Of a DNA stretch of 60,370 nucleotides, positions 2,716 through 51,522 are shown in pieces. The notes below the pieces were generated by a model, which saw only the letters and a list, made by a program, of their open reading frames with translations, did no database searches and was not told the DNA's origin. Positions within the stretch are counted from its first letter, which is position 1. Each line of letters opens with the position of its first letter. The position numbers were made by a program, and so were the translations under genes. Source of the stretch: an uncultured Alphaproteobacteria bacterium (GTDB lineage: Bacteria; Pseudomonadota; Alphaproteobacteria; SP197); NCBI GenBank assembly GCA_938048755.1, contig CALIUG010000048.1, positions 1 through 60,370 of the forward strand, in the 5' to 3' direction.

Positions 2716-2719
2716 GGCC

Positions 2720-18247: not shown

Positions 18248-19644
18248 CAGCAACCCAAGAACAGAAGGAACGCGCCATGCCGGAGGCAAAGGTTGTCGGG
18301 CCCGATGATGTCCTGATCCTTTCGGATCCGCTCATCTGGTCGGACCCGCGGTTCCACACACGCCTGCTTGAAGGCCTGCGCAAGGAAGGTTTTGCCGAAG
18401 AGACCCTGGTGGCTCTGGGCGATATCCTTGCCCGGAACAATGTCGGCGACCTTGATGGTCTGGTTGCTCTGGTCGGCAAGAGCGGAGACGAGGCGCTGAA
18501 GGCGGTCGTCGAACATCTGCACAGGATCGCGCAGTTCAATGCGACCTGCTATCTGCGCGACAAGCCCGAAAAGACCCGCGTCATCCAGTGGCCCAACAAC
18601 TCCAAGCTGAAGGCGGACGACCCCGGGCACTACTTCGACATTCTCGAGGATTTTCCCTGCCGTCAGACCCATCGTTTCATCACGCGCGATACGCCCATCG
18701 GCAGTGCGGGCTCGTGTTTTGCCCTGCGCATCGCGCACCAGCTGCAGCTCTGGGGCTACAACTACGTCATCGAGGAGGACGACCTCCCGCCCGATGTGCC
18801 GCTGGACCAGATTCAGGGCACCAACTACCGCATGGCGCCGGCACGCACCGGCACGCTCTTCAATGTGGTGTCCATGCGCCAGATGGTGGAGCGCGCCTTT
18901 GGTGAGTGGGAGCCCGAACATATCCTTTCCGTCGACAAGGGTTTCTGGCTCGACCCGTTCCGGCGTGTGCGCGCTTCTTACAAGGACCTCGATGGATACC
19001 TCGAGGACTATCAGCGTCATACCGATGCTCTGCGCCGCGCCCTCATGGCCTGCGAGGCGTTTGTCCTGACTCTGGGGCCGACCGAAGCCTGGAAGTTCGC
19101 CCATAGCGGTGACTTCACCAGTGTCGGACCCTGGAAGGTCGAGCCGACCCTGGTGCGGGCACACAACCTGACCGTGGAAGAGCATGTCGAGGAACTCGAA
19201 CGCCTTCTTGCCTGCTACAAGCGGCACCGCCCGGGAATCAAGATCATCCTCACGGTCTCGCCGGTGCCGCTCGACAAGACCTATTCGGATCACCTGCATG
19301 TCGTGGAAGCCAACGCGATTTCCAAGGCAAAGCTGCGTTTGGCAGCGGATCAGTTTGCCAGCCGCCACCCCGAAGATGTGTTCTATTTCCCGTCCTACGA
19401 GATCGTCATTTACGGTACCGCGAACCCTTGGGAATCCGACCATCGCCATGTTTCCTCCGAAGCGGTCGGCAGGGTGATGGCGATGTTCCAGCACATGTTT
19501 CTGAAAGAGCGCACAAAGCTTCCCTATAGCGGTCACACGGACGAAGTGGCGCCCGTCTCACCCACCATGATGGGCCGTGCCCGGCAACTGGCCGGTCCTC
19601 TGCGACCGCATCTGGGCGCCTTGCGCCGCAAGCTGGGGATCTAG
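18244..19644 (+). CDS. GSCFA domain-containing protein (SGNH-like) with N-terminal extension
   Basis: SAGSCFA, FVLTLGPTEAW, ILTVSPVPL, SKAKLR, YFPSYEI, DHRHV. Confidence 0.88.
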   Translation: MTATQEQKERAMPEAKVVGPDDVLILSDPLIWSDPRFHTRLLEGLRKEGFAEETLVALGDILARNNVGDLDGLVALVGKSGDEALKAVVEHLHRIAQFNATCYLRDKPEKTRVIQWPNNSKLKADDPGHYFDILEDFPCRQTHRFITRDTPIGSAGSCFALRIAHQLQLWGYNYVIEEDDLPPDVPLDQIQGTNYRMAPARTGTLFNVVSMRQMVERAFGEWEPEHILSVDKGFWLDPFRRVRASYKDLDGYLEDYQRHTDALRRALMACEAFVLTLGPTEAWKFAHSGDFTSVGPWKVEPTLVRAHNLTVEEHVEELERLLACYKRHRPGIKIILTVSPVPLDKTYSDHLHVVEANAISKAKLRLAADQFASRHPEDVFYFPSYEIVIYGTANPWESDHRHVSSEAVGRVMAMFQHMFLKERTKLPYSGHTDEVAPVSPTMMGRARQLAGPLRPHLGALRRKLGI

Positions 19645-19651
19645 AAAAACC

Positions 19652-21562
19652 GTGAGCGATCCCACGCACAACGAAAAGGCAAAGCCTTTGCCGCCTCACG
19701 GGGGCGACAGCCGCGCTGCACCGTCGGGTGTGACTGGCAGCGTGCGCGCTGCCGCCGCCATGACCGTTTCGGGCTGGCGCATGTTGCTGCCACGCGAGAA
19801 GATGGAAACGAGCATCATCTTCCTTGCTTCGTTCCTGTCGTCTGCCGTGGAACTGGCGGCACTTTCGACTGCGGTGCCGTTCATCGGCCTGTTGCTGGAG
19901 CCCGATTCCCCCGATCGTTTCCCCATGGTCAACGAAGCCCTGGCGCTGGTCGGTTTGAAACCGGAAGGCGACACCGTGTTCCTGATGGGCGGGCTCGTGA
20001 TCGCCAGCCTTGCCGTGGCCTTCCTGTTCCGGACTATCATCTTCATCGCAGTGGAACGGTTCAGCGCGCATTTTGCCAACCGGCTGGTGGATGAGTTGAT
20101 CCATGGCTGCCTGTTCGGTCCCTACGCATGGCTGCGCACGCAGAACGGTGCGCATCTGGCTCAACGCATCTCGGTTGATGCCGCTTCGGTCGGCCAGGCG
20201 CTCTTCGCCAGTGTTCTCGACCTCAGCTACGGCGTCTTCATTCTGCTCATCGGCCTGACGGCGGTGATCGCTGCCTCGTCCTGGATGACCATCGGGGTCC
20301 TGATCGGTTTTGGCCTGCTGGCTGCGCTGATCCTTGCGGCGCTCAATCCGCTCTCGGCGCGTTATTCTGCCGACCAGCGCCATCAGAGCATCAAGAGCGT
20401 GCAGCAGGCCGTCGAATCTCTCAGTGGTGCCAAGGTTCTGAAGGTTTCCGGGCGTGAGCGTTACTTCCTGGACCGGTTCGCGACCAGCTGGCGACGTGCG
20501 AACTTCTCGCGCATGAAACTCAATGTGGTCAACAAGACGATCCCTGCCATCACCATGCTGGTGGGGCAGATTGCCATGTTGTCGCTTGCCATGACCCTGG
20601 TTGCCATTCAGCTCTCGGCCGAAATCATCGTGGCGCAGCTGACCTTTATCCTTCTGGTGCTGGTGCGCGTCCTGCCTGCCGTCTCCCAGATCAGTGGCGC
20701 CATCAACCGGCTGGTCAAGCTGGAACCGTTCTATGTCGGCTACAGCGAACTGCTGGGCTGGATCAAGAGCTGGACCACGACCCATACCGCCGCCGAAGTG
20801 CCCCATGGCGAGAGCCTGGCCTGGCAAACCCTGACCTTTGAAGAGGTTGCCTTTCGCTATGCCGATGCTGATCGGGCGCAGCTTGAAGACATCAACCTCA
20901 CGCTCGAACGCGGCAGTAGCTACGCCTTTGTCGGTGCTTCAGGCGCAGGCAAGAGTACTCTGCTGGATATCCTGCTTGGCCTGCTGATCCCGACCGGGGG
21001 GCTGGTGCGTCTGGACGGCAAACCGCTGACCGGAGGTATGCGCAACGCCTGGCTCTCGGTGATCGGCTATGTGCCCCAGGAAGCCTTCATCATTGATGAT
21101 TCCCTGCGCCGCAACATCGCCTTTGGCCTCGATGACACGCAGATCGATGATGCCAAGGTCTGGCGCTGCCTGGAGCTCGCGGAACTGGCCGATGTTGTGA
21201 AAACATGGCCGGACGGTCTGGAAACATCCCTGGGCGATGCCGGTGGCAGACTCTCGGGCGGACAGCGCCAGCGTGTGGCCATCGCACGCGCACTCTACGG
21301 CGACCCCCAGGTTCTGGTGTTTGACGAAGCGACCAGCGCGCTGGATGTCCCGACCGAACGCGCCATTCGCGGCACGATCAGTCGCCTGGGGGGCGAGCGC
21401 ACTCTGGTGACCATCACCCACCGCATGGGTTCTCTTGCCGATTGCGACAAGATCTTCGTGCTGGAGGACGGCGCCATCACGGCATCAGGCAGTCACGATG
21501 CCTTGTCGCGCGATAGCCGCTCATTCCGCCTGCTCTCGGACGCGCGCGTGGAAAGCGCATGA
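19652..21562 (+). CDS. ABC transporter permease/ATP-binding fusion (MsbA/PglK-like glycan flippase)
   Basis: Several hydrophobic helices, then GASGAGKST, VPQE, LSGGQRQR, DEATSALD, ITHR. GTG start at 19652 assumed. Confidence 0.88.
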   Translation: MSDPTHNEKAKPLPPHGGDSRAAPSGVTGSVRAAAAMTVSGWRMLLPREKMETSIIFLASFLSSAVELAALSTAVPFIGLLLEPDSPDRFPMVNEALALVGLKPEGDTVFLMGGLVIASLAVAFLFRTIIFIAVERFSAHFANRLVDELIHGCLFGPYAWLRTQNGAHLAQRISVDAASVGQALFASVLDLSYGVFILLIGLTAVIAASSWMTIGVLIGFGLLAALILAALNPLSARYSADQRHQSIKSVQQAVESLSGAKVLKVSGRERYFLDRFATSWRRANFSRMKLNVVNKTIPAITMLVGQIAMLSLAMTLVAIQLSAEIIVAQLTFILLVLVRVLPAVSQISGAINRLVKLEPFYVGYSELLGWIKSWTTTHTAAEVPHGESLAWQTLTFEEVAFRYADADRAQLEDINLTLERGSSYAFVGASGAGKSTLLDILLGLLIPTGGLVRLDGKPLTGGMRNAWLSVIGYVPQEAFIIDDSLRRNIAFGLDDTQIDDAKVWRCLELAELADVVKTWPDGLETSLGDAGGRLSGGQRQRVAIARALYGDPQVLVFDEATSALDVPTERAIRGTISRLGGERTLVTITHRMGSLADCDKIFVLEDGAITASGSHDALSRDSRSFRLLSDARVESA

Positions 21563-23868
21563 ACGTCGCGACCATGCAGTTCGGTACCAAGGGTGAAACC
21601 CTGGCGCGTCTTGCGCCGCTGGTGCCCGACGCCAGATTCTGTGCCCAGATCCTGTTTACCGTGGCGGACTGGAACCAGGATGCCGATGCACTGCTGCGCC
21701 GGATCATGGCGGAGTTCGGTGACGGGCTTCTGGTGGTGCGCTCCAGTGGGCTCTCCGAGGACACCCACGCCTCATCCATGGCCGGTGTTTTCGACAGTGT
21801 GATTTCCGTGGAGCCGACACAGGAATCGATCACCCGCGCCGTAGAAACCGTCATGGCGAGCTACGGCAACGGGCCGGACGGCAACCAGATTCTGGTCCAG
21901 CCCATGATCCGCGATGTCGATATCTCCGGGGTGGTCGTGACCCGCGAGCTCACCGTTGGTGGCCCCTATTTCGTCATCAACTACGACGATTTCTCAGGCC
22001 GCACCGACACCGTGACCAGCGGGGCAGAAAGCAAGACCCTTCTGATCCACCATGATTCCGTCGAGGGCCTTCATTCGCCGCGCTTCCTGCGCCTGATCGC
22101 GATTGTGAAGACGCTCCAGGCGACCTGCGCCAATTCCCTGCTTGATATCGAGTTCTGTATTGCCGGTGACGACATCACCATCCTTCAGGTGCGCCCGCTC
22201 ACCATGCATGGACGCTGGCAGGCCGCGCCGGATGCCGATGTTGCCGCCAGCCTCACGCACATTCGCAACGATTGGGCCGAACGCACAGCTCCTCACGGTG
22301 CGATTTTCGGCGATGCACCGGTGCTCAGCGACATGGCCGACTGGAATCCGGCCGAGATGATCGGCCAGGCCCCGCGCCCCCTTGCCCTCTCGCTCTATCG
22401 GCGTCTCATTACCGACCGAACCTGGTGTGAGGCGAGGTTCGACATGGGGTATCGCCGCTTCACACCTGAGCCTCTTCTGATCGACCTGGGCGGCAGGCCC
22501 TATATTGATGTGCGTCTCAGCCTCAATTCTCTGTTGCCCGATGGGCTCGCAGACGGGGTTGCCGAACCGATTGTCACCCAGCAGCTCGCCATGCTGCGTG
22601 ATCAGCGTGATCTCCATGACAAGTTCGAGTTCGAGATCGCGCTTTCCAGCATGGACTTCGGATTCGCCGAGAAGGCCGGGCGTCTCGAGGTCGGGGACCT
22701 GGGCGACCTTGAGGATCTCCTGCGTGGCCTTACCAACGGCTGGATCGCGACCCGGCATGGTGAATTCCAACGCCTTTCGGACATGACCAGCCGGCTGGAT
22801 GCCGGAGTCGCGCAAACGTCTTCCAACCTGGTGCGGGCAGACCTACTCCTGGAAAACTGCCGGCATTACGGCACCCATCCGTTTTCGATTGTCGCGCGCC
22901 ACGCCTTCATCGCCATGGCGTTCGTCAAGTCGCTGGTCGCCCGTGATGCTGTCGATCCCGCCACAGCCGCTCGCCTGATGACCAGCGTGCATACGGTTGC
23001 TGCCGATGTGGTGGACGGCATGCACGGCGTTTCAAGGGGCACCACGACCATGGAGGCCTTCCTGGGTTTCTGCGGCCATCTGCGCCCGGGCACCTATGAC
23101 ATCCTCTCGGCACGTTATGACGCTGCGCCCGATCTCTACCTCAAGGGCAGCATGGCCGAGCCTGCGCCGGTAGAGCCTTTTGTCTGGGCTCAGGACGAGG
23201 GCAAGGCGCTGCAGTCTCTGCTGAACGATCATGGCCTTGATACCGATCCTGAGGGGCTGATGGATTACATCAGCCAGAGCGTGGCCGGTCGCGAGCAGAT
23301 CAAGTTCGACTTCACCCGCAACATTTCAGATGCGCTCGAAGCGCTGGCAGCCTGGGGCGAAGGCGTAGGACTCAGTCGTGATGACCTCTCGTATCTCGAT
23401 ATCGGAACGATTCTGAACGGATCGAACAAGGCCCCCGAAGAACTGCAAGAGATCGTGGCGCAGCAGCGTGAACAGCATGCCGTAACCCTGACCCTGCGCC
23501 TGCCGGAGGTCGTGACCGGCGTGGCCGACATCGGCGTTGTGCGCATGCCCCTGGGCAAGCCGACCTTCACGACACAGGAAGCGGTCACGGCCCGCGTCGT
23601 CGACCTGGAACGTGATGGTGCTGATGCGTTGGATGGCGCCATTGTCCTGATCGAGGCGGCCGATCCCGGTTATGACTGGATCCTGTCTCACGGCATCGCG
23701 GGCCTCGTAACCAAGTTCGGCGGTGCGAACTCGCATATCGCAATCCGTTGTGCGGAGTTTGGTCTTCCCGCCGCGATCGGGTGTGGCGAACGTCTGTTTG
23801 CCGAACTGGGGCGTGGTTCTGTGATCGAACTCGACTGTGCCACCCGAACCCTGCGGTCGATCGCATGA
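21559..23868 (+). CDS. L-glutamine kinase-like PPDK/PEP-utilising enzyme (Cj1418 homologue)
   Basis: FGTKGETL, VRSS...ED...SMAG, DIEF, LQVRP (ATP-grasp), MADWNPAEMIG, GHLRPGTYDI, ADPGYDW, GGANSHIAIRCAEFGLPAAIGCGE (phospho-His domain). Confidence 0.85.
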   Translation: MNVATMQFGTKGETLARLAPLVPDARFCAQILFTVADWNQDADALLRRIMAEFGDGLLVVRSSGLSEDTHASSMAGVFDSVISVEPTQESITRAVETVMASYGNGPDGNQILVQPMIRDVDISGVVVTRELTVGGPYFVINYDDFSGRTDTVTSGAESKTLLIHHDSVEGLHSPRFLRLIAIVKTLQATCANSLLDIEFCIAGDDITILQVRPLTMHGRWQAAPDADVAASLTHIRNDWAERTAPHGAIFGDAPVLSDMADWNPAEMIGQAPRPLALSLYRRLITDRTWCEARFDMGYRRFTPEPLLIDLGGRPYIDVRLSLNSLLPDGLADGVAEPIVTQQLAMLRDQRDLHDKFEFEIALSSMDFGFAEKAGRLEVGDLGDLEDLLRGLTNGWIATRHGEFQRLSDMTSRLDAGVAQTSSNLVRADLLLENCRHYGTHPFSIVARHAFIAMAFVKSLVARDAVDPATAARLMTSVHTVAADVVDGMHGVSRGTTTMEAFLGFCGHLRPGTYDILSARYDAAPDLYLKGSMAEPAPVEPFVWAQDEGKALQSLLNDHGLDTDPEGLMDYISQSVAGREQIKFDFTRNISDALEALAAWGEGVGLSRDDLSYLDIGTILNGSNKAPEELQEIVAQQREQHAVTLTLRLPEVVTGVADIGVVRMPLGKPTFTTQEAVTARVVDLERDGADALDGAIVLIEAADPGYDWILSHGIAGLVTKFGGANSHIAIRCAEFGLPAAIGCGERLFAELGRGSVIELDCATRTLRSIA

Positions 23869-24554
23869 GCAAACCCCTGTTTGCGGTCTCCATGCGGGTC
23901 CAGCAGGCTGTGGGATACCACGAGCCGCGCGATGCCCTGGCCCATGACTGGTGGGCACAGATCGCAGACTGGGGCGGCATGCCGCTGCCCGTACCCAATC
24001 TTGGTGCAGGCATCGGCGCCTGGCTCGATGCGCTTGGCCCCTCAGTCGTGATTCTGACTGGCGGGAACGATGTCATCACGCGCACCGATGCTGCTGATGA
24101 CCGTTCGCCTGAACGCGATGCCACCGAACACGCCATGATTACCTGGGCCGGCGAACGTGGCGTGCCGGTTTTTGCCACATGCCGGGGACTGCAGGTGGTC
24201 AACCTCCATTTCGGTGGTGCGGTGCACGAGATTGCCGACAAGGGCAGCCATGTCGGGCGCGATCATGCCGTCACTCTGTCGCCGCCGTTATGCGAACTGG
24301 CCGGAAGCGGAACGGCAACGGTCAACTCGTTCCACAATTTTGGTGTGGCGCCGGACGCGGTTGGCGACGGCCTAAAGGTTTGTGCGGTCTCCACCGGGGA
24401 TGGTCTGGTGGAGGCGTTGGTGCATCGCGATGCGCCCATCGTTGCACTCCACTGGCACCCCGAACGGCGTGCGCCGGGAACGCAAGGCTTCGAAGACACT
24501 CTGTTCCGACGGCTTCTGGCCGAGGGCGCATTCTGGAAGGAAACGAGCGAATGA
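23865..24554 (+). CDS. gamma-glutamyl-CDP-amidate hydrolase-like class I glutamine amidotransferase (Cj1417 homologue)
   Basis: ATG 23865 overlaps upstream stop. SMRV...YHEPRDALAHDW, LTGGND, TCRGLQ, VNSFH, WHPER. Confidence 0.83.
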   Translation: MSKPLFAVSMRVQQAVGYHEPRDALAHDWWAQIADWGGMPLPVPNLGAGIGAWLDALGPSVVILTGGNDVITRTDAADDRSPERDATEHAMITWAGERGVPVFATCRGLQVVNLHFGGAVHEIADKGSHVGRDHAVTLSPPLCELAGSGTATVNSFHNFGVAPDAVGDGLKVCAVSTGDGLVEALVHRDAPIVALHWHPERRAPGTQGFEDTLFRRLLAEGAFWKETSE

Positions 24555-25345
24555 AGGTTCTGATTGTTGCTGCCGGCCGGGGTTCGCGCCTTGGCGTTCA
24601 CAGCGACCAAACGCCCAAATGCCTGACGCCTTTTGCCGGATACAGGTTGCTGGACCTCCAGCTATCGGTTCTCCGCGGGGCGGGTCTTGATGATATCCAT
24701 CTGGTGCGCGGTTATCTCGGCGAGCAGCTCGATGGCCTGGGCCTCACGCTCTGGGACAATCCCGATTGGTCAGCGACCAACATGGTTGCTTCCATGCTGT
24801 GTGCGCGTCCGGTTCTTGAATCCGGTGAGGATGTCATCCTGGCCTATGGCGACATCATCTATGAAGAGAAGATCCTCGAGGCACTGCTGGCCGATGACAG
24901 TGAGGCCGGTGTGATCGTGGACCGTGAATGGCTGAAGCTCTGGATTCTGCGCAGCGACGATCCGCTTTCGGATGCAGAGAGCCTGCGCCTTGATGGTGGC
25001 GGCAACATCATCGATATCGGACGCAAGGTGCCGAGCCTGGACGAGATCGAGGCGCAGTACATCGGCCTCATGCGGTTCTCAGCCAAGGCGTGCGGCGAAC
25101 TGCTCGACCTCCTCGATCGTGCAGCCCAACCCGGCGGCGATGTGCAGGGCAAGCCGGTCGCCAACTGTTACATGACAGACCTGCTGCAGGCCCACATCGA
25201 TCATGGTGGCAAGCTCCATGCCGTCCCCATCGATGGCGGCTGGATCGAAGTCGATACTGATGAGGACCTTGCGCGTTACACCGCCCTGGTCGAGGCCGGA
25301 ACGTTTGGCGATCTGTGCGGTATCAAGGCATTGGCCGGGCGATAG
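24551..25345 (+). CDS. CTP:phosphoglutamine cytidylyltransferase-like NTP transferase (Cj1416 homologue, LicC family)
   Basis: AAGRGSRL..PKCL, TNMV, YGDIIY, W.KLW..R..DPLSDAE, EIEAQYIGL, YMTDLLQ, WIEVD. Confidence 0.85.
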   Translation: MKVLIVAAGRGSRLGVHSDQTPKCLTPFAGYRLLDLQLSVLRGAGLDDIHLVRGYLGEQLDGLGLTLWDNPDWSATNMVASMLCARPVLESGEDVILAYGDIIYEEKILEALLADDSEAGVIVDREWLKLWILRSDDPLSDAESLRLDGGGNIIDIGRKVPSLDEIEAQYIGLMRFSAKACGELLDLLDRAAQPGGDVQGKPVANCYMTDLLQAHIDHGGKLHAVPIDGGWIEVDTDEDLARYTALVEAGTFGDLCGIKALAGR

Positions 25346-25365
25346 ATCGAGACTTGGCGCAAACC

Positions 25366-26604
25366 ATGTCATTTGGATTGATCCCTGTTCTCGTGACCGC
25401 CGGTGCCGTGCTGGCGGCCGTTGAAGCGGCTGCGTGGACGGTGGTCATGATCTTCCGACGCAACTTTCCCTGGCTCATCGTGCCCCGTGACGCCAGGCCG
25501 GAGATCGCCACGGACGTGATCGAGAAATACGCCCGCGTGAGCTTCGATGCGGAGCTGGGCTGGGCACGCAAGCCCGGTACGTCGGGCCTCGATGTCTCGC
25601 CTGAGGGCGATGCAGCCTTTTCCATCGCGGACGATGGTGCGCGTACCAACCCGGGTTTCGAGGGCAAGCCCAGCAGTGTTGCGGTCTTTGGTGATTCCTA
25701 CGCCTTCTGCCGTCTGGTCGGTGACGGAGAGACCTGGCCACACGCGCTCTCCGGTCTGTGCGGGACCAACGTGCGCAACTTCGGTGTCGGCAATTACGGT
25801 CTGGACCAGGCGCTCCTGCGTTATGAACGTCAGGCCCCTGACCACAAAGGCTCTGTCGTGATCATGGCTGTGGTGCCCGAAACCATTGCCAGGGTTCACT
25901 CGTTCTGGAAGCACTTCTATGAGTAAGGCAACACGCTGGCGTTCAAGCCGATGTTCCAGATTGAAGGGGATGACCTCAAGCTGGTCCCGTGTGCGGTCCA
26001 GGAGGCACACGAAATCGCCGAGACCTCGCGCTGGCGTGACGCTGTGCGCCAGAACGACCGGTTCTACCGCGAGAAGTTCCTGGCAGACCTGATCCGGTTT
26101 CCCGCGAGCCTCAGCATCCTGCGCCGGTGGCGGCGTCATGGACGCATTCTTTCCGAACTGCTTTGCGGCGCGATGACCGGGGAACCCGAAGCTGCGCGCC
26201 GCAGGGCGTTTTCGGTTGTGCTCGATGAAAACCACCTGCATCAGCGGCGTCTCTTTGCCGAGCCGGAAGCAGGGGAACTGCTGCGCCGGCTGGTGGTCCG
26301 TTTCGAGGCGACGGCCAGACGTCACGGCGCAACGCCGCGCCTTGTCATCCTTCCTCAGCTCCGTGACCTCGCGGACCGGGCATCAGGCAGGGATGTCAGC
26401 CGGGAGGTTGTCCACAAACTGGGCGAGGTTGTGCCTGTTCTCGACCTTGGTGATGTCCTGCTGCAACAGCACGATGCCATGGAGGTCTATGAGGAGGGCG
26501 CATTGGGGCCGCATACCAGTCCCAATGCGAACCGTCTGATCGCCGAAACCGTACATCAATGGCTGGCTGCCGACGGGCTGGCCGGGGTGAAGGAAAGCAA
26601 CTAA
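25366..26604 (+). pseudogene. Membrane-anchored SGNH/GDSL-like protein split by an in-frame TAA at 25924-25926
   Basis: ORFs 25315-25926 and 25951-26604 share a frame. Read-through gives HFYE*GNTLAFKPMF. N-terminal TM helix, FGDSYAF, NFGVGNYGLDQA, C-terminal GPHTSPNANRLIA. Confidence 0.78.
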
Positions 26605-26608
26605 CGCC

Positions 26609-28408
26609 ATGTCTCTCTGGGCTTCACGATTCAAGGAATTCTGCCGTGACGCGGTGATTCCGCCTGCCCTGTGGAAGGCGCTTTCCAATGCTTCACGTGC
26701 CATGCATGCCGACAAGCGCAAGGCCGACAAGAACAAGAGCCAGTATCCCTATATCTGGGATGGTGACGACTTCGAACTTGCCCACGACCTGCGTTATGTT
26801 GCGGTCCCCGATGCGACCGGTGCCATGGGCATCACCCGTGCGCGCGATACCCGTGCTGCCATCGAGGTGCAGAGGGATGTCGATATCAGCGTCGGTCCGT
26901 TTCCGCCTGATACCGTTGCCTTCACGACTGCATTTGCCCAGGCGCGCATCAATCTTCCCTATGCCGATCTCACGGTGACGCTGGATGGCAAGCCCGTCAC
27001 CCAGATCAAGGGGCCGCTGATTGCCGAGAACTGGAACAACGTTCGAGTGCCCATCGGGGACCCCGCAAAGGTTTCGACCCTGCGTCTGAGCTGGTTGGGC
27101 GAGCGGTTGTATCTGTCCCAGCCGGTGCCGGAACGGGTTCTGGCCGACCGGGAAAAACGCTCCAACGTGATTGTTCTGGTACTTGATTCCATGGTGCCCG
27201 AAACCGTGGGGTGCCTTTCGGGCGCGTCACCAGAGGAATCGTTCACGCCCCAGATCGACCGCTACTTCGCAAACGGCCAGCTGTGCACCAACGCCTACAG
27301 CCAGAGCGAATACACGATGCCCTCGCTCGCCACGATGATGACGGGGCTTTATCCCATCCAGCACGGTGTCTTCACCCATGACCGGTGTCAGCGCACCATC
27401 CCGCCCCAGATTCCGACTCTGGCGGAGTTTCTGCAGGAAGCAGGTTACCGAACGTTTGCCTATTCGACGGGGCGTCGGTACGTGCCGCCCTATGGTCATT
27501 ACCGCGGGTTCGAGCGCTTTCATTTTCACAACCAGAGCCTGGCAGACACGACCGACACGGTGGTCAACCGGGCGATGGAGTTCATCGAGACGCACAAGGA
27601 TTCACCGACCTTCTGTTTCCTGCACATCATCGATCCGCACCCCCCCTTTGCCCTGCCGACCTATTTTTCCGAACTCAATTCGGGTGAGTCACGCTGGGGG
27701 GACAGCCGAAGCCTTTATGGCGCCTTCAAGCTGCATCGTGACAGCCGCGAGCGTGTCGCCGACCTGCGCGAGATGGAGCGCGTCATGGTGCGCAATCTCG
27801 ACTTCATCCTGGGCAAGCTCTTTGGCTATCTGGAACGCGAAGGCCTCAACAAGACAACCGATGTCATGGTGCTGGCTGATCATGGACGGGAATACATGAA
27901 GGGCTCGCCGCTGCTGACCCGCAGCCTGACCCGTATTCCATTCCTGCTCACCGGCCCCGGTGTGAAGTCGGGCACCTGTGACGGTTTCGTTGAGCCGCCC
28001 ATCGATCTTTATCCAACCATTGCAGGGATGGCCGGATTGGAGCCGCCGCCGCATCTTTCCGGACGCAACGCGATTGAACCCGAAGGCGGCTATCGCACGG
28101 TCGGGCGATCGGAATCTCTCTTCCGGGAGACCGGTGAAATCGTTCTGCGCGAGGATGACCGCATGTACGCCCTGCGCTTCCCGCTCGATGACCTTGCCGG
28201 TGAGGGGGATTTTGACGCGCCGGTCGGTGAATGGCTGTTCCGCCGGGATCCAGCGACCAAGGAAGAGGACATGAGCGAGAATCTGCTCGATTCCGAACCG
28301 GAAACCACGGCGCGGTTCCGCAAGATGGTGCGCGATCACTACGACGGCATGGAACGCCATTTCTCCAACGACAACATCATCGCCATGACGCGGGACTATC
28401 CCAAATGA
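26609..28408 (+). CDS. Alkaline-phosphatase/sulfatase superfamily protein with Thr at the nucleophile position
   Basis: NVIVLVLDS, SQSEYTMPSLATMMTGLYP, LHIIDPHPPF, VLADHG, IPFLL, DLYPTI. About 185-aa N-terminal extra region. No obvious signal peptide. Confidence 0.83.
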   Translation: MSLWASRFKEFCRDAVIPPALWKALSNASRAMHADKRKADKNKSQYPYIWDGDDFELAHDLRYVAVPDATGAMGITRARDTRAAIEVQRDVDISVGPFPPDTVAFTTAFAQARINLPYADLTVTLDGKPVTQIKGPLIAENWNNVRVPIGDPAKVSTLRLSWLGERLYLSQPVPERVLADREKRSNVIVLVLDSMVPETVGCLSGASPEESFTPQIDRYFANGQLCTNAYSQSEYTMPSLATMMTGLYPIQHGVFTHDRCQRTIPPQIPTLAEFLQEAGYRTFAYSTGRRYVPPYGHYRGFERFHFHNQSLADTTDTVVNRAMEFIETHKDSPTFCFLHIIDPHPPFALPTYFSELNSGESRWGDSRSLYGAFKLHRDSRERVADLREMERVMVRNLDFILGKLFGYLEREGLNKTTDVMVLADHGREYMKGSPLLTRSLTRIPFLLTGPGVKSGTCDGFVEPPIDLYPTIAGMAGLEPPPHLSGRNAIEPEGGYRTVGRSESLFRETGEIVLREDDRMYALRFPLDDLAGEGDFDAPVGEWLFRRDPATKEEDMSENLLDSEPETTARFRKMVRDHYDGMERHFSNDNIIAMTRDYPK

Positions 28409-28433
28409 CGGTGTATGGACCGGGAGAACAGCG

Positions 28434-28961
28434 GTGATCATCTGGCTCATCGGCCTGTCGGGTGCCGGCAAGACGACCATCGGGCGCGAGGTCTGGCAGC
28501 AATGGCGCGAGCAGGACCCCGCCACGGTGTTCCTTGACGGCGACATTCTGCGGGACGTCTGGGGCGACCGCCTGGGGCACGATGTCGAGGGCAGGGCGCG
28601 CAACGCCCATCGCATCTCCCATCTGTGCCGGGTTCTGGACGAGCAGGGCATCAATGCCGTCGCGGCGGTTCTGTCGATCTTTCCCGAATGGCAGGCCTGG
28701 AACCGCGAGACATTTTCGTCTTACTACGAGGTCTTTCTGGATCTTCCCATGGAGGTTCTGAAACAACGCGATCCCAAGGGGATCTATGCCGCCCATGACA
28801 GTGGCGAAATGCCACTGGTGGTAGGGTGTGACCTGCCGTTTCCCACACCGCCCGCGCCGGATCTGGTGCTGGGCGAAGACGCCATGAAAAGCAGCCCGGG
28901 CGATCTTGCCCGCCGTATTCTCGGTGATTCGGGTGTGCTCCATGATCAAGAAGGAGTTTGA
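28434..28961 (+). CDS. Adenylyl-sulfate-kinase-like protein, probable cytidine diphosphoramidate 3'-kinase (Cj1415 homologue)
   Basis: IIWLIGLSGAGKTT, LDGDILR, WNRETFSSYYEVF, RDPKGIY, VVGCDLPF. Context next to Cj1416-18 homologues. Confidence 0.82.
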   Translation: MIIWLIGLSGAGKTTIGREVWQQWREQDPATVFLDGDILRDVWGDRLGHDVEGRARNAHRISHLCRVLDEQGINAVAAVLSIFPEWQAWNRETFSSYYEVFLDLPMEVLKQRDPKGIYAAHDSGEMPLVVGCDLPFPTPPAPDLVLGEDAMKSSPGDLARRILGDSGVLHDQEGV

Positions 28962-38368: not shown

Positions 38369-40258
38369 ATGTGTGGTCTCGCCGGCATGGTCGACTGGTC
38401 CGCCTCGATGGCACCGGATGCGCGTGAACGTGCGGTCCAGGCCATGAGCGATGCGCTGATTCATCGCGGCCCCGATGACTCCGGCATCTGGTCGGATGAT
38501 CGCGCGACCCTGGGACAGCGTCGCCTGGCGATCATCGACCTCAGCCCCACCGGTCATCAGCCCATGGTCAGTGCATGCGGGCGTTATGTGCTGAGTTACA
38601 ACGGCGAGATCTACAACCATCGCAGCATGGCCGAGGACCTGCGCGCCGATGGCGTCACCTTCCGCGGCCATAGCGATACCGAAATTCTTCTCGAAGCCAT
38701 CGCCCTTTGGGGAGTCGAGCGTGTCTTGGAGCAGGCGGCAGGCATGTTCGCCTTTGCTCTGTGGGATACGCGCGAGGCCACCATGCTTCTGGCGCGTGAC
38801 CGCCTGGGCAAGAAGCCCCTCTACTGGACCAGCGCGGGCGGACGGCTTGCCTTTGCTTCGGAAATGACGGCCTTGCTCAAGCTTGAAACCACGCCGCGTG
38901 CGATCGACCGGGATGCGCTCTGTCTCTATCTGCGTCACGCCTGTGTTCCCGCGCCGCGCTCCATTCTCCAGGGAGTGCACAAGCTTGAACCCGGCACTAT
39001 GCTGACCTTCACGGCTTCCGACCAGGCCCAGGAAATGCGCTACTGGAATATTCGCAGTATCGCCATGGACGGGCTTGATGCGCCGTTTTCCGGCAGTGAT
39101 GACGAGGCCGTTACATCCATTTCCGATACCCTGGCTGTTGCCGTGCGTGAGCGCATGATTTCCGATGTCCCTCTGGGTGCCTTTCTCTCCGGCGGTATCG
39201 ACTCATCGCTGATCGTGGCGCTGATGCAGGAAGAGAGCGATCAGCCGGTCAACACGTTCTGCATTTCCTTTGATGAGGACGGCTGGAACGAGGGGGATTA
39301 CGCAAAGACCGTTTCGGAGCATCTGGGAACACGCCATCGCGAATTGCGGCTTGATCCCGCCCGGGCGATCGACAGCCTCGATACCGTGGTGGCTCATGCC
39401 GACGAACCTTTTGCCGATGCCTCATCCATCGCAACCTATCTCGTCTCAAAACTGGCGCGCGAACACGTTACGGTCGCGCTCAGCGGGGATGGCGGCGATG
39501 AGATCTTCGCCGGTTACTCTCGCTACGACTGGACCCAGCAGACCTGGAACCGGATCGCGCCCTGGCCGCGTCTTCTGCGCCGGCCGGTCGCTGCCCTGAT
39601 GCGTGGACTCTCCTGGTCGGGTGGCCGGGGGGATAGCCTGGGCCACTACGGCGCCGTACTGGGAGAAGCCACCCCGGACGGCATCTATCGTCACACGCTC
39701 AGCGCATGGCAATGTCCGACCCGCCTTGCCTGTGGCGGTCGTGAACCGGCCGGACCCATCTGGGACACGAGCCTGAAGCGCGACGTGCCGGACCTGATGA
39801 CACGCATGCAGGTGATCGATGTCGCGGGTTTTCTGCATGACGACATCCTGACCAAGGTCGACCGTGCCTCCATGGCGGTCAGCCTGGAGGCACGGTCGCC
39901 CATTCTGGATCACCGGGTGGTGGAGCAGGCGTTCCGCCTGCCGCGCGCGATCATGCATCGGGATGGTCGTGGAAAATGGCCCCTACGCCGAATTCTGGAT
40001 CGTCATGTTCCGGCCCATCACTTTGAGCGGCCCAAGCGAGGATTCTCTGTGCCCGTGGGCTATTGGCTGCGTGGCCCGCTGAAGGACTGGGCGGCAAACC
40101 TCATCGAAACCAGACGGATCGAAGAGGCCGGCTTCTTCGATGCCAGGGAACTTCACAAGGTCTGGGACCGCCACCAGGCCGGTAGCAACCGCTGGGCCAA
40201 CGCTTTATGGACCGTGGTCATGTTCGAAGCGTGGCGCGACCGCCACGGCTTTACCTGA
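38369..40258 (+). CDS. asnB: Asparagine synthase (glutamine-hydrolysing)-like amidotransferase, copy 1
   Basis: MCGLAG, HRGPD, RRLAIID, NGEIYN, SDTE, LSGGIDSS, SGDGGDEIFAGY, KVDRASM, KRGF. ATG 38369. Confidence 0.92.
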   Translation: MCGLAGMVDWSASMAPDARERAVQAMSDALIHRGPDDSGIWSDDRATLGQRRLAIIDLSPTGHQPMVSACGRYVLSYNGEIYNHRSMAEDLRADGVTFRGHSDTEILLEAIALWGVERVLEQAAGMFAFALWDTREATMLLARDRLGKKPLYWTSAGGRLAFASEMTALLKLETTPRAIDRDALCLYLRHACVPAPRSILQGVHKLEPGTMLTFTASDQAQEMRYWNIRSIAMDGLDAPFSGSDDEAVTSISDTLAVAVRERMISDVPLGAFLSGGIDSSLIVALMQEESDQPVNTFCISFDEDGWNEGDYAKTVSEHLGTRHRELRLDPARAIDSLDTVVAHADEPFADASSIATYLVSKLAREHVTVALSGDGGDEIFAGYSRYDWTQQTWNRIAPWPRLLRRPVAALMRGLSWSGGRGDSLGHYGAVLGEATPDGIYRHTLSAWQCPTRLACGGREPAGPIWDTSLKRDVPDLMTRMQVIDVAGFLHDDILTKVDRASMAVSLEARSPILDHRVVEQAFRLPRAIMHRDGRGKWPLRRILDRHVPAHHFERPKRGFSVPVGYWLRGPLKDWAANLIETRRIEEAGFFDARELHKVWDRHQAGSNRWANALWTVVMFEAWRDRHGFT

Positions 40259-40274
40259 AAGGCAGACGTTAACG

Positions 40275-41102
40275 ATGCGCAAGGATTTCATTGATGGCCG
40301 GCAGTTTCACGGCCTCGCCGAGCCTGACTTCGTCGAGAAGTACTGGACCGATGTGTGGCGTCAGCAGGGTGCGCGCAAGGATCTGCTCGCCAAGATTCCG
40401 ACCAAGCCGGAGTACAAGGTCATGGCACCGGTGCTCGACAGCCTGCCGCAGGGTGCGCGCATCGTGGATGGCGGCTGTGGCCTGGGCGACTGGATCGTCC
40501 ATTTCCAGGAACGCGGCTTCGATGCCCTGGGTCTCGACATCAGCCGTGAGACCATCGCCATCCTGAACGAACGCTTTCCCGATGCTTCCTTTGCCGTTGG
40601 GGACATCCGCGCCATGGACGCCGAGGATGCCAGTGCTGACGTCTATTTCTCCTGGGGCGTGTTCGAGCATTTTGAGGAGGGCCTCGGCCCCTGTATCCGT
40701 GAGGCCTTCCGCGTGCTCAAGCCCGGTGGGCACCTCTACATCACGGTGCCCTTCGACAACCTGCGCATGGCCATCAAGGCGGCCCTATCGGGTGTGGGAA
40801 AGGTCGCTGAGCCGGATCTCGAACGGCGTTTCTATCAATGGCGCCTGACCCGTGCCGAACTGGCCGCGGAACTGTCACGCGAGGGGTTTGAAGTCCTTGA
40901 GGTCAAGCCCCTGCACAAACGCCAGGGCGTCTTGCGCAGCCTGCACCATGAATTCGGCATGTCCTATGACTGGTTCCTCACCAAGGCACTCTCGGCCGTG
41001 ATCGCGCCTGTGGTGCCCGGTGGCGTCTTTGCCCACATGTTGATGGCAACGGCGCGCCGACCGCTGGAATCAGATACTCAAGATGCCCGGCCAATCGGGT
41101 AG
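40275..41102 (+). CDS. Class I SAM-dependent methyltransferase
   Basis: VDGGCGLG, GLDIS, GDI, SWGVFEHF, VLKPGG. ATG 40275. Confidence 0.87.
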   Translation: MRKDFIDGRQFHGLAEPDFVEKYWTDVWRQQGARKDLLAKIPTKPEYKVMAPVLDSLPQGARIVDGGCGLGDWIVHFQERGFDALGLDISRETIAILNERFPDASFAVGDIRAMDAEDASADVYFSWGVFEHFEEGLGPCIREAFRVLKPGGHLYITVPFDNLRMAIKAALSGVGKVAEPDLERRFYQWRLTRAELAAELSREGFEVLEVKPLHKRQGVLRSLHHEFGMSYDWFLTKALSAVIAPVVPGGVFAHMLMATARRPLESDTQDARPIG

Positions 41103-41830: not shown

Positions 41831-41897
41831 TCCCGGTACCGGATGGGTTCAGAAACAAGGGCAATACAGTACCTGCTTGCCAAAGGCCAGTCTTCCC

Positions 41898-51403: not shown

Positions 51404-51459
51404 GGCTGTCTCCCGAAACCGTGGGGAGTATGCACCGGGCGGGCATCGTCGCGCAGCGC

Positions 51460-51496
51460 AAAAGAAAAGGCCGGCGGTTGTTCGGCCCGCCGGCCT
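51460..51496 (-). terminator. Rho-independent terminator downstream of the yceI-like gene
   Basis: Perfect 10-bp stem AGGCCGGCGG (51468-77) / CCGCCGGCCT (51487-96), 9-nt loop, followed on the - strand by a T-rich tail. Confidence 0.8.
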
Positions 51497-51522
51497 CTCC
51501 GTCCATCAGGGCTTGGCACCCG

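What the first reader, a model, noticed from the sequence alone, without database searches (positions are those of the whole stretch)
21559..28961. Complete phosphoramidate (P-N bond) precursor pathway inside a non-Campylobacter glycan island
Seen: a PPDK-like enzyme, a class I GATase and an NTP transferase overlap end to end, and an APS-kinase-like gene follows about 3 kb downstream. Established: C. jejuni Cj1418 (glutamine kinase), Cj1416 (cytidylyltransferase), Cj1417 (gamma-glutamyl-CDP-amidate hydrolase) and Cj1415 (3'-kinase) make 3'-phosphocytidine-5'-diphosphoramidate for capsular O-methyl phosphoramidate. The motifs here (DWNPAEMIG, YHEPRDALAHDW, EIEAQYIGL, IIWL.GL.G.GKTT) fit those subfamilies as I recall them. 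Inference: this probable alphaproteobacterium decorates an ulosonate-rich glycan with a (methyl)phosphoramidate. Automated annotation would likely mislabel these genes as PPDK, peptidase C26, LicC and CysC.
Basis: partly seen in the sequence, partly recalled or inferred. Interest (0 to 1): 0.85.

Follow-up and report, generated by a model that had tools for sequence, protein, structure and literature searches.

The report
Phosphoramidate-donor genes in a marine glycan island
A marine alphaproteobacterium carries, inside a pseudaminic-acid sugar island, the same four-enzyme set that Campylobacter uses to make the activated phosphorus-nitrogen donor for its capsule, and this gene set turns out to be common across many microbial phyla rather than a rarity.

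Summary
Genes 21559-23868, 23865-24554 and 24551-25345 overlap by ATGA, and an APS-kinase-like gene lies at 28434-28961.

The reading as a Cj1418/1417/1416/1415-type pathway is well supported, but only indirectly. No Campylobacter sequence could be obtained, so there is no direct comparison.
- The large protein scores 798 bits on NF004508, against 53 bits for PEP synthase. JGI names 12 of its 120 listed relatives "glutamine kinase".
- In 80 loci from named genomes of many phyla, the GATase, the NTP transferase and the kinase lie beside it in 73, 72 and 56 loci.
- Fusion proteins join the kinase-like enzyme to each of the first two partners.
- The small kinase is not a canonical CysC.

The family is very large: 1502 clusters at 50% identity, and at least 587 hits in species genomes. 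This is therefore a new member of a known kind.

Two genes sit inside the module and may act downstream:
- a sulfatase-fold protein with an invariant Thr where sulfatases have formylglycine;
- a membrane-anchored SGNH protein, which carries a TAA stop in this genome but TAC in other populations.

No phosphoramidate on the glycan has been shown.

The parts
19577..21562 (+). ABC exporter with fused membrane and ATPase domains. It is translationally coupled (ATGA) to the next gene. It is probably the exporter or flippase of the glycan or its lipid-linked precursor.
   Evidence: Pfam ABC_membrane plus ABC_tran. The best NCBIfam hits are HepA-family, MsbA and PglK, all below their cut-offs. The overlap is shown. 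A like ABC gene lies directly upstream of the module in L005, L006, L008 and L043.
21559..23868 (+). Glutamine-kinase-like PEP-utilising enzyme (Cj1418 type). Inferred reaction: ATP + L-glutamine gives N-phospho-L-glutamine, through a phosphohistidine.
   Evidence: NF004508 798.3 bits (cut-off 501), against 52.6 bits for the best PEP-synthase model. H726 in GGANSH and D261-W262-N263-P264-E266 are invariant in 28 sequences. JGI names 12 of 120 listed relatives 'glutamine kinase'.
23865..24554 (+). Class I glutamine-amidotransferase-fold hydrolase (Cj1417 type). Inferred reaction: CDP-L-glutamine gives cytidine diphosphoramidate + glutamate.
   Evidence: Peptidase_C26 100 bits. The best NCBIfam model is NF045546, gamma-glutamyl-CDP-amidate hydrolase, at 80.8 bits, below its cut-off of 250; PuuD scores 47.3. 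C106, H198 and E200 are invariant in a 5-sequence alignment. A relative lies next to the large enzyme in 73 of 80 loci.
24551..25345 (+). COG1213-type nucleotidyltransferase (Cj1416 type). Inferred reaction: CTP + phosphoglutamine gives CDP-L-glutamine + PPi.
   Evidence: NTP_transf_3 55 bits. The AAGxGSR motif is invariant. A relative lies next to the large enzyme in 72 of 80 loci. N-terminal NTP_transf_3 fusions to the large enzyme exist in P0147 and P0148. JGI names 7 of 120 listed relatives 'L-glutamine-phosphate cytidylyltransferase' and 14 'choline kinase'.
25367..26604 (+). Membrane-anchored SGNH/GDSL-fold protein, interrupted here by an in-frame TAA at 25924-25926. It is a candidate downstream enzyme of the module.
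   Evidence: The two ORFs 25315-25926 and 25951-26604 are in one frame. The congener G013 has an intact 416-aa gene with Tyr at that codon. Contigs of runs X3 and X5 read C at 25926, while X1 reads A. The Atlas places it with SGNH/GDSL and AlgX-like clusters. In L011, L016, L056 and L068 it follows the kinase directly; in L081 it lies upstream of the kinase with one methyltransferase gene between them.
26609..28408 (+). Sulfatase-fold (alkaline-phosphatase superfamily) protein with an N-terminal beta-sandwich. It has Thr236 in place of the formylglycine precursor. It is a candidate phosphoramidate transferase or phosphoesterase.
   Evidence: Pfam Sulfatase 120.6 bits. The alignment to solved sulfatases puts T of TMPSL at the C/S-x-P-x-R site. 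T236, D193, D424 and H425 are conserved in 18 relatives. The AF2 model has pLDDT 87.4, and its nearest folds are S1 sulfatases. In metagenome locus L126 (44% identity) it follows GlnK-GAT-NTP directly.
28434..28961 (+). APS-kinase-fold P-loop kinase (Cj1415 type). Inferred reaction: ATP + cytidine diphosphoramidate gives 3'-phospho-cytidine 5'-diphosphoramidate.
   Evidence: NF004041 152.6 bits (cut-off 127), and TIGR00455 108.2 bits (cut-off 138.7). It is the only APS-kinase-like match in the genome. Canonical domains of the class score 194-274 bits. A quick tree places it among the module-linked kinases. A relative is present in 56 of 80 loci.
40140..41102 (+). SAM methyltransferase of the type ('MT_b') that lies beside the module in 14 of 80 loci. 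It is a possible methylating enzyme; the link is weak.
   Evidence: 95 bits on an HMM built from the 14 module-adjacent methyltransferases, with the next best hit in the genome at 32 bits. Pfam Methyltransf_25/11.

Best explanation
Genes 21559-25345 and 28434-28961 encode a four-enzyme route of the Campylobacter Cj1418, Cj1416, Cj1417, Cj1415 kind.

The inferred steps are:
1. [quoted passage not shown]
2. A COG1213 nucleotidyltransferase joins the phosphoglutamine to CMP, giving CDP-L-glutamine.
3. A class I GATase-fold hydrolase (Cys106, His198, Glu200) releases glutamate and leaves cytidine diphosphoramidate.
4. An APS-kinase-fold enzyme phosphorylates the 3'-OH, giving a PAPS-like donor of the phosphoramidate group.

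What is shown here: gene presence, family assignments, conserved catalytic residues, and conserved linkage of the four genes across phyla.

What is inferred from the published Campylobacter work: the chemistry of each step.

What is inferred from position alone: the donor is used in the cytoplasm to decorate the pseudaminic-acid-containing glycan made by the surrounding operon, and the ABC exporter encoded just upstream then exports the glycan.

The transferase is not identified. The two genes lodged inside the module are the best candidates. These are a sulfatase-fold protein with a Thr nucleophile and a membrane-tethered SGNH protein.
For: - Family scores: NF004508 798 bits against 53 bits for PEP synthase. 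NF045546 is the best family for the GATase. NF004041 is above its cut-off and TIGR00455 below it.
- Names from JGI: 'glutamine kinase' for 12 of 120 listed relatives, and 'L-glutamine-phosphate cytidylyltransferase' for 7 of 120.
- Linkage: GATase in 73, NTP transferase in 72 and kinase in 56 of 80 loci, from Alphaproteobacteria, Pseudomonas, Desulfovibrio, Planctomycetota, Bacillota, candidate phyla and DPANN archaea.
- Fusions: NTP_transf_3 joined to the large enzyme in P0147 and P0148, and the large enzyme joined to Peptidase_C26 in P0243.
- Catalytic residues are conserved.
- The kinase is the only APS-kinase-like gene in a genome that is 92.7% complete. It scores 111 bits where canonical ones score 194-274. 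It groups with module-linked kinases in a quick tree in which 30 canonical domains form one clade with SH-aLRT 96.
- 7 of 10 module-linked kinases from other phyla show the same pattern of PRK05541 above and TIGR00455 below the cut-off.
- Pathway and gene roles in Campylobacter: passages of PMC3907429, PMC6429109 and the preprint 10.64898/2026.02.12.704994.
- Pse pathway genes in the island.
Against: - No Cj1415-1418 sequence was available, so identity to and trees with the characterised enzymes were not computed.
- NF004508 is described only as 'hypothetical protein'. Its link to Cj1418 rests on my recall.
- The GATase reaches 80.8 bits on NF045546, below the cut-off of 250.
- The NTP transferase matches no specific NCBIfam model. 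JGI calls twice as many of its listed relatives 'choline kinase' as 'L-glutamine-phosphate cytidylyltransferase'. Relatives of this transferase family use other phospho-substrates, such as phosphoglycerate and phosphothreonine.
- 24 of 80 loci show no kinase, and 2 of 10 module-linked kinases look canonical.
- No TagF-like gene and no 'u195' gene, both partners of the module elsewhere, is in the window.
- The SGNH gene inside the module has a stop codon in this genome.
- No chemical data exist for this organism.
Confidence: 0.75

Rival explanations
1. The module makes a CDP-activated phospho-compound other than cytidine diphosphoramidate. One example would be CDP-glutamine or another CDP-amino acid used directly as a donor. 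The glycan would then carry a phosphodiester-linked amino acid rather than a P-N group.
For: COG1213 transferases accept several phospho-substrates (passage of PMC12275187). CDP-threonine is a direct donor in C. difficile flagellin glycan synthesis. The GATase is below the cut-off of the Cj1417 model.
Against: A GATase-fold hydrolase with an intact Cys-His-Glu triad is fixed next to the kinase-like enzyme in 73 of 80 loci, and is fused to it in P0243. That fits hydrolysis of the glutamine conjugate. NF045546 is still the best-scoring family for it.
Confidence: 0.1
2. The precursor pathway is present, but the decoration is not made in this strain. The SGNH-like gene inside the module is inactivated by a nonsense codon, so this would be an off allele or a decaying island.
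For: There is a TAA at 25924-25926. The same A is read in contigs of run X1, while X3 and X5 read C, giving Tyr. The congener G013 has the intact 416-aa gene.
Against: The role of the SGNH protein is unknown, so its loss need not stop the decoration. X1 may be the window's own source sample, so the A is not independently confirmed. All other genes of the module are intact.
Confidence: 0.12
3. The genes have the functions that their generic labels suggest: PEP synthase/PPDK, PuuD-type hydrolase, LicC-type cytidylyltransferase and CysC. Their neighbourhood is coincidental.
For: The Pfam domains are those of these families. RefSeq uses such labels.
Against: PEP-synthase models score at most 53 bits, against cut-offs of 598-1063. 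The kinase is below the CysC cut-off and lies outside the canonical clade. The four-gene linkage recurs across phyla.
Confidence: 0.02

Closest known systems
Campylobacter jejuni MeOPN precursor pathway: Cj1418 L-glutamine kinase, Cj1416 phosphoglutamine cytidylyltransferase, Cj1417 gamma-glutamyl-CDP-amidate hydrolase, Cj1415 cytidine diphosphoramidate kinase
   Same: The same four protein families are present. The large enzyme, the GATase and the transferase are tightly linked, and the genes lie inside a surface-glycan cluster served by an ABC exporter. Gene roles come from passages of PMC3907429 and PMC6429109.
   Different: Gene order here is kinase-like enzyme, GATase, transferase, then two other genes, then the small kinase. 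The host is a marine alphaproteobacterium with 62% G+C. An SGNH gene and a sulfatase-fold gene sit inside the module. Whether Cj1419/1420 methyltransferase or Cj1421/1422 transferase homologues exist could not be tested, because no sequences were available. The GATase is below the NF045546 cut-off.
PEP synthase / pyruvate phosphate dikinase / rifampin phosphotransferase (PEP-utilising enzymes)
   Same: An N-terminal ATP-grasp part (PPDK_N) and a C-terminal swivelling phosphohistidine domain with GGxxSH.
   Different: Only the two terminal domains match. The scores of 52.6 bits or less are far below the cut-offs of these families, and PDB matches are limited to residues 667-762.
APS kinase CysC and the PAPS system
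   Same: The P-loop fold, the LDGD motif, and the logic of 3'-phosphorylating a nucleoside 5'-diphospho donor.
   Different: It is below the TIGR00455 cut-off, stands alone, is not next to sulfate adenylyltransferase, and lies outside the clade of 30 canonical domains.
Phosphoethanolamine transferases (EptA/MCR-1), LtaS and nucleotide pyrophosphatases: alkaline-phosphatase superfamily enzymes with a Thr nucleophile (recalled knowledge)
   Same: The 599-aa protein has the superfamily fold, conserved metal-ligand Asp and His residues, and an invariant Thr at the nucleophile site.
   Different: By sequence and fold it is nearest to S1 sulfatases and phosphonate monoester hydrolases, not to EptA or LtaS. 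It has no membrane domain. Its activity is unknown.
Clostridioides difficile FtaABCD (CDP-threonine route to a phospho-amino-acid decoration of flagellin glycan)
   Same: A COG1213-type cytidylyltransferase makes a CDP-linked donor for a post-glycosylation modification. In 18 of the 80 loci a TagF-like transferase, the kind FtaD belongs to, accompanies the module.
   Different: The window has no TagF-like gene. In the window's module the conjugate is expected to be hydrolysed to the amidate before transfer.
Borg extrachromosomal elements of Methanoperedens (preprint 10.1101/2024.11.05.622173)
   Same: A non-Campylobacter cluster read by its authors as glutamine kinase, cytidylyltransferase and hydrolase of the MeOPN route (passages).
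   Different: It is an archaeal element. The assignment was by structure prediction, and no kinase of the Cj1415 kind is mentioned in the passages I saw.

Membership tests
L-glutamine kinase (Cj1418 type, EC 2.7.3.13) | PEP-utilising architecture with an N-terminal ATP-binding part and a C-terminal swivelling His domain | tested here: met
   PPDK_N at residues 43-102 and PEP-utilizers at 692-762. There is a full-length match to NF004508, positions 6-787 of 789.
L-glutamine kinase (Cj1418 type, EC 2.7.3.13) | Catalytic histidine in the GGxxSH motif. That the equivalent His is the phosphorylated residue in Cj1418 is recalled, not checked. | tested here: met
   G721, G722, N724, S725 and H726 are invariant in 28 sequences.
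L-glutamine kinase (Cj1418 type, EC 2.7.3.13) | Closer to Cj1418 than to PEP synthase, PPDK or Rph by direct comparison or tree | not testable with these tools
   No Campylobacter sequence could be fetched. Indirect evidence: JGI names 12 of 120 listed relatives 'glutamine kinase'.
L-glutamine kinase (Cj1418 type, EC 2.7.3.13) | Gene neighbourhood with a GATase-fold hydrolase and a COG1213 cytidylyltransferase | tested here: met
   73 and 72 of 80 loci. ATGA overlaps in the window.
gamma-glutamyl-CDP-amidate hydrolase (Cj1417 type, NF045546) | Score at or above the curated cut-off of the equivalog model | tested here: not met
   80.8 bits against a cut-off of 250. It is nevertheless the best NCBIfam family, ahead of PuuD at 47.3 bits.
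gamma-glutamyl-CDP-amidate hydrolase (Cj1417 type, NF045546) | Class I GATase fold with a Cys-His-Glu triad | tested here: met
   Peptidase_C26 100 bits. C106 in CRGxQ, and H198 and E200 in WHPER, are invariant in 5 sequences.
phosphoglutamine cytidylyltransferase (Cj1416 type) | COG1213 / NTP_transf_3 fold with the N-terminal GxGxR nucleotide-binding loop | tested here: met
   NTP_transf_3 55 bits. A7, A8, G9, G11, S12 and R13 are invariant.
phosphoglutamine cytidylyltransferase (Cj1416 type) | Specific assignment to the phosphoglutamine-using subfamily | tested here: inconclusive
   No specific NCBIfam model matches. JGI names among the 120 listed relatives: 7 'L-glutamine-phosphate cytidylyltransferase' and 14 'choline kinase'. 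Support comes from linkage (72 of 80) and from fusions to the large enzyme.
cytidine diphosphoramidate kinase (Cj1415 type) | APS-kinase fold, but outside canonical CysC | tested here: met
   APS_kinase 105.6 bits. TIGR00455 108-111 bits, below the cut-off of 138.7, while 31 of 61 genomes of the class hold domains over the cut-off that score 194-274 bits. In a quick tree the canonical domains form one clade with SH-aLRT 96, and the window protein lies inside the module-linked set.
cytidine diphosphoramidate kinase (Cj1415 type) | Membership of the same subfamily as Cj1415 | not testable with these tools
   NF004041 (PRK05541) scores 152.6 bits against a cut-off of 127, and 7 of 10 module-linked kinases behave alike. 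That Cj1415 belongs to PRK05541 is my recall only.
S1 sulfatase | The C/S-x-P-x-R motif that is converted to formylglycine | tested here: not met
   The aligned site reads T-M-P-S-L. T236 is invariant in 18 relatives. The protein is therefore not filed as a sulfatase.

The most novel reading that the evidence does not exclude
In this lineage the phosphoramidate group is not transferred by a Campylobacter-type or TagF-type transferase. Instead it is transferred by one of two proteins embedded in the module.

The first candidate is a cytoplasmic sulfatase-fold enzyme. Its invariant Thr would take the phosphoramidate from 3'-phospho-CDP-amidate as a covalent intermediate and pass it to the glycan. 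This would be a new activity for the alkaline-phosphatase superfamily. The second candidate is the membrane-tethered SGNH protein.

The TAA/TAC polymorphism in the SGNH gene among near-identical marine populations would then be an on/off switch of the decoration. That would be comparable in effect to phase variation of the MeOPN transferases in C. jejuni.
Probability: 0.2. Interest if true: 0.7.

Novelty: new member of a known kind. Interest (0 to 1): 0.45.

Why it matters
P-N bonds in glycans have been shown chemically only in Campylobacter capsules. Non-methylated phosphoramide has also been reported in Xanthomonas and Shewanella LPS (passages of PMC3907429 and PMC3210612).

The gene set for the activated donor is widespread. 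It occurs in at least 587 places in species genomes of many phyla. It also occurs in a marine alphaproteobacterium whose DNA is held by runs of 17 studies. Phosphoramidate decoration of surface glycans may therefore be common in the environment and largely overlooked.

The steps after the donor are still unsolved even in Campylobacter, according to the closing remarks of PMC12409886. The alternative partner genes seen here give concrete candidates to test. These are TagF-like proteins, the 'u195' plus formyltransferase-like pair, the SGNH protein, and the Thr-bearing sulfatase-fold protein.

Tried and rejected
**Direct comparison with Cj1415-1418 was not achieved.**
- The four Raushel papers are not held.
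- PDB holds no closer chain.
- The 14 control genomes of the genome search do not include it.

**Other dead ends**
- PRK05849, PRK05541, K23753 and EC 2.7.3.13 were searched in the paper library. Nothing useful was found.
- I tested whether the SGNH protein is a fusion or relative of the 'u195' plus formyltransferase-like pair that takes its place in other loci. hhalign gave probabilities of 0.15-0.26%, so I rejected the idea.
- I considered that PMC8949473 shows the MeOPN transferase to be TagF-like. Its passages concern a different gene (06875, not the MeOPN transferase 06810), so I rejected that too.
- I asked whether the AlkP-like protein always accompanies the module. It does not. Of the 5 full-length relatives in metagenome contigs I read 3. 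L126 has it directly after the three core genes. L127 and L128 do not, though both contigs are short, and L128 lies beside an ATP-sulfurylase-like ORF. L124 and L125 were not examined.
- Contig-length coincidences between hits (44668, 13804, 9651, 12611) suggest co-location but were not verified.
- A second contig of the genome, C15, starts with a 'u195' plus formyltransferase-like pair. Its neighbours there are an aminotransferase, an arginase-family gene and others, not glycan genes. I did not link it to the module.
- The careful tree did not finish, so only the quick tree is reported.
- A script meant to tabulate residue conservation over all 71-78 cluster members failed when the script machine was lost. 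I used small alignments of 5 and 6 sequences instead.

**Limits on what I read**
- Supplements of papers were not opened. Table S1 of PMC3907429 and any sequence-network data of the Raushel papers could bear on the distribution claims.
- That the wide distribution is not in print rests only on searches, in a library that lacks most subscription journals.


Full report
**What is there.** The window is contig C48 of a 4.16-Mb draft genome. From about base 14 to 50514 it carries one long + strand gene array for a surface glycan.

The four genes of the finding are real ORFs.
- 21559-23868: 769 aa, PPDK_N plus PEP-utilizers.
- 23865-24554: 229 aa, Peptidase_C26/GATase.
- 24551-25345: 264 aa, NTP_transf_3.
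- 28434-28961: 175 aa, APS_kinase (domains).

The first three overlap by ATGA. The ABC exporter gene upstream (19577-21562) overlaps the first in the same way.

Two further genes lie between the transferase and the small kinase. One is an SGNH-like gene, 25367-26604, split by an in-frame TAA. The other is a sulfatase-fold gene, 26609-28408.

**Family assignment.** The 769-aa protein matches NCBIfam NF004508 over its whole length at 798 bits (cut-off 501). The best PEP-synthase, PigC or Rph model gives at most 53 bits. None of the 14 control genomes reaches the NF004508 cut-off.

The GATase scores best on NF045546, the model named for the Cj1417 activity. It reaches only 80.8 bits against a cut-off of 250, and PuuD scores 47.

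The transferase has only weak N-terminal matches to MurU, GlmU and similar models.

The small kinase passes NF004041 (152.6 against 127) and fails the canonical APS-kinase model TIGR00455 (108 against 138.7).

PDB holds nothing closer than generic members of each fold.

**Size and spread of the family.** The large enzyme has 1510 relatives at E <= 0.001 among 8000 scored candidates. The 120 listed are 44-98% identical. Among them JGI 'glutamine kinase', 6 'hypothetical protein' and 2 'phosphohistidine swiveling domain-containing protein'. NCBI calls one 'pyruvate phosphate dikinase'.

An exhaustive search of cluster representatives at 50% identity found 1502 at E <= 1e-30. The 150th best hit was still at 1e-141.

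Of these, 587 were confirmed. The best 80 come from Alphaproteobacteria, Pseudomonas, Aeromonas, Alteromonas, Desulfovibrio, Planctomycetota, Acidobacteriota, Actinomycetota, Bacteroidota, Cohnella, candidate phyla and DPANN archaea. No Campylobacter was among those 80.

Fourteen plasmids also carry a relative. On one of them RefSeq labels the three genes 'PEP/pyruvate-binding domain-containing protein', 'gamma-glutamyl-gamma-aminobutyrate hydrolase family protein' and 'phosphocholine cytidylyltransferase family protein'.

**Linkage.** I searched the 80 loci with tblastn using the window proteins, requiring at least half of the query to be covered.
- The GATase was found in 73 loci, the transferase in 72 and the small kinase in 56.
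- The sulfatase-fold protein was found in 1 locus (5 with any hit).
- The C-terminal part of the SGNH protein was found in 7.

Some loci are short contigs, so these are lower bounds.

I also scanned nine longer relatives for extra domains. Two have an N-terminal NTP_transf_3 domain, one a C-terminal Peptidase_C26 domain and one a PHP domain. Five showed no extra Pfam domain.

Catalytic residues are kept:
- His726 in GGANSH, and DWNPAE, in 28 sequences;
- Cys106, His198 and Glu200 in 5 GATases;
- the AAGxGSR loop in 6 transferases.

**The small kinase is not CysC.** It is the only APS-kinase-like match in its genome, which is 92.7% complete.

In 61 genomes of the class, 31 have a match over the cut-off. 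Those domains score 194-274 bits, and most sit in open frames of about 560-780 aa. The window's gene scores 111.

In a quick IQ-TREE tree of 78 sequences, the 30 canonical domains form one clade (SH-aLRT 96). The window protein sits within a 41-row group of module-linked kinases with support 84, which is not a strong value. The careful search did not finish.

Of 10 module-linked kinases from other phyla:
- 7 repeat the pattern of PRK05541 above and TIGR00455 below the cut-off;
- the 2 Cohnella ones look canonical;
- 1 is below both.

**Context.** The island encodes PseB (417 bits against a cut-off of 408), PseC (471 against 424), PseI (501 against 340), and PseG (201 against 154), which is fused to a GNAT domain.

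It also encodes a second NeuB fused to a cupin, three CMP-transferase-type genes, HisH/HisF-like genes, several methyltransferases and glycosyltransferases.

Within the genus, the large enzyme is over the cut-off in only one of 21 other species genomes, G013. A fragment lies at a contig end in G020. Of 17 genomes from other families of the class, one has it (G031).

G013 has the same island in the same order, at 52-92% protein identity over the stretch fetched. The low value is the N-terminal part of the SGNH gene, and most genes are at 75-92%.

The island is therefore accessory. DNA of this stretch is held by 20 runs of 17 studies, mostly marine.

**Variants of the module.** I clustered all ORFs of the 80 loci and read the gene orders. 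This showed alternative partner sets:
- the kinase followed by an unknown 195-aa protein ('u195') and a formyltransferase-like protein, often with a methyltransferase and a TagF-like gene;
- a methyltransferase plus the kinase;
- a TagF-like gene without the kinase;
- the window's type, with ABC exporter, core genes, sulfatase-family gene, kinase and SGNH gene. This type is seen in L005, L006 and L008, and in part in L038 and L043.

In L011, L016, L056 and L068 the SGNH gene sits directly after the kinase, where 'u195' plus the formyltransferase-like gene sit elsewhere. In L081 it lies upstream of the kinase, with one methyltransferase gene between them. The SGNH protein and that pair are not homologous.

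The window has no TagF-like gene and no 'u195' gene.

TagF-like FtaD transfers a substituted phosphate from CDP-threonine in C. difficile (passages). This makes the TagF-type partners plausible transferases elsewhere.

**The two embedded genes.** The 599-aa protein aligns with solved S1 sulfatases. Where they have the C/S-x-P-x-R site, it reads T-M-P-S-L.

Only about 19 full-length clusters exist in 5.8 billion proteins. In 18 aligned relatives, T236, D193, D424 and H425 are conserved.

An AlphaFold model from that alignment has pLDDT 87.4. It shows an N-terminal beta-sandwich and a core nearest to S1 sulfatases and phosphonate monoester hydrolase.

A 44%-identical relative in a low-G+C metagenome contig follows the three core genes directly. 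Two more distant relatives do not.

I infer a phosphoryl-transfer enzyme rather than a sulfatase. Its substrate is unknown.

The SGNH protein is placed by the Atlas with SGNH/GDSL and AlgX-like clusters. It has an N-terminal hydrophobic helix followed by RR. By the positive-inside rule, which I recall rather than tested, this suggests a cytoplasmic catalytic domain.

In this genome codon 25924-25926 is TAA. G013 has Tyr at that position. Contigs of two runs from different studies read TAC. Run X1, which may be the source sample, reads TAA.

**Literature.** I saw passages only.
- cj1415-cj1418 are the biosynthesis genes, and cj1421/cj1422 are the transferases. Non-methylated phosphoramide occurs in Xanthomonas campestris and Shewanella LPS (PMC3907429; PMC3210612).
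- Glutamine kinase forms N-phospho-L-glutamine, and the later intermediates include 3'-phospho-5'-cytidine diphosphoramidate (PMC6429109).
- The steps that decorate the polymer are still to be elucidated (PMC12409886).
- A Borg preprint reads a similar cluster in archaeal elements.

Searches found no paper in this library that describes the wide bacterial distribution. The original enzymology papers were not available to me.

**Verdict.** The reading as a phosphoramidate-donor pathway is the best explanation (0.75). It rests on models, names, linkage and fusions, and not on a direct comparison with the Campylobacter proteins.

The module is a common one, so the finding is a new member of a known kind. 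The open and more interesting part is which protein uses the donor in this lineage.

Noticed in passing
window 25924-25926: There is an in-frame TAA in the SGNH-like gene. Near-identical contigs from two other studies read TAC (Tyr), as does the congener G013. This is either a strain-level loss-of-function allele or an error carried in one sample.
   Followed up: yes
window 26609-28408: A sulfatase-fold protein has an invariant Thr at the formylglycine site and an N-terminal beta-sandwich of about 130 residues. The family is rare, with about 19 full-length clusters.
   Followed up: yes
G000 contig C15, 481-1738 (L092): The 'u195' plus formyltransferase-like pair accompanies the kinase in 21 other loci. 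In this genome it lies at the very start of another contig (58% G+C), beside aminotransferase, arginase-family, semialdehyde dehydrogenase and hexapeptide-transferase genes.
   Followed up: partly
L003-L082 (80 loci): At least four alternative sets of partner genes accompany the conserved three-gene core. They are: kinase + u195 + formyltransferase-like; methyltransferase + kinase; TagF-like without kinase; and ABC + sulfatase-family + kinase + SGNH.
   Followed up: partly
P0147, P0148, P0243, P0163: Natural fusions of the glutamine-kinase-like enzyme exist with an NTP transferase (N-terminal), a C26 GATase (C-terminal) or a PHP domain. About 60 of the 150 listed cluster representatives are some 200-250 aa longer at the N terminus.
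   Followed up: partly
window 7696-9180: PseG (201 bits, cut-off 154) is fused to a C-terminal GNAT domain. This is probably a PseG-PseH fusion.
   Followed up: no
window 30080-31639: A NeuB-family synthase is fused to a C-terminal cupin / lyxose-isomerase-like domain. It is below the NeuB and PseI cut-offs, and would be a second, unusual ulosonate synthase in the island.
   Followed up: no
window 4437-6488: A CMP-transferase-type domain (CTP_transf_3) is fused to a class III aminotransferase. HisH/HisF-like genes lie just upstream at 2095-3475.
   Followed up: no
window 16550-18247, 33829-35220, 37342-38358, 41114-41905, 50576-51673: Five ORFs of 263-565 aa in the island match no Pfam family at E <= 0.001. 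Two of them, at 33829-35220 and 37342-38358, are conserved in G013 at 79-82% identity.
   Followed up: no
L128 1-870 and 1306-3066: A distant (28%) full-length relative of the Thr-bearing sulfatase-fold protein lies beside an ATP-sulfurylase-like ORF and a radical-SAM-like ORF in a metagenome contig. It is not beside the phosphoramidate module.
   Followed up: no
G000 contig C183, 3749-5361 (L093): A paralogue of the NTP transferase (152 bits on the module HMM) lies next to a CDP-alcohol phosphatidyltransferase. This looks like a separate CDP-alcohol system.
   Followed up: no
window 24551-25345 and 40140-41102: There are weak sub-threshold matches to the NCBIfam 'DVU_1551 family NTP transferase' and 'DVU_1556 family methyltransferase'. 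These hint that a named Desulfovibrio gene set may be of the same kind. Several Desulfovibrio loci carry the module.
   Followed up: no
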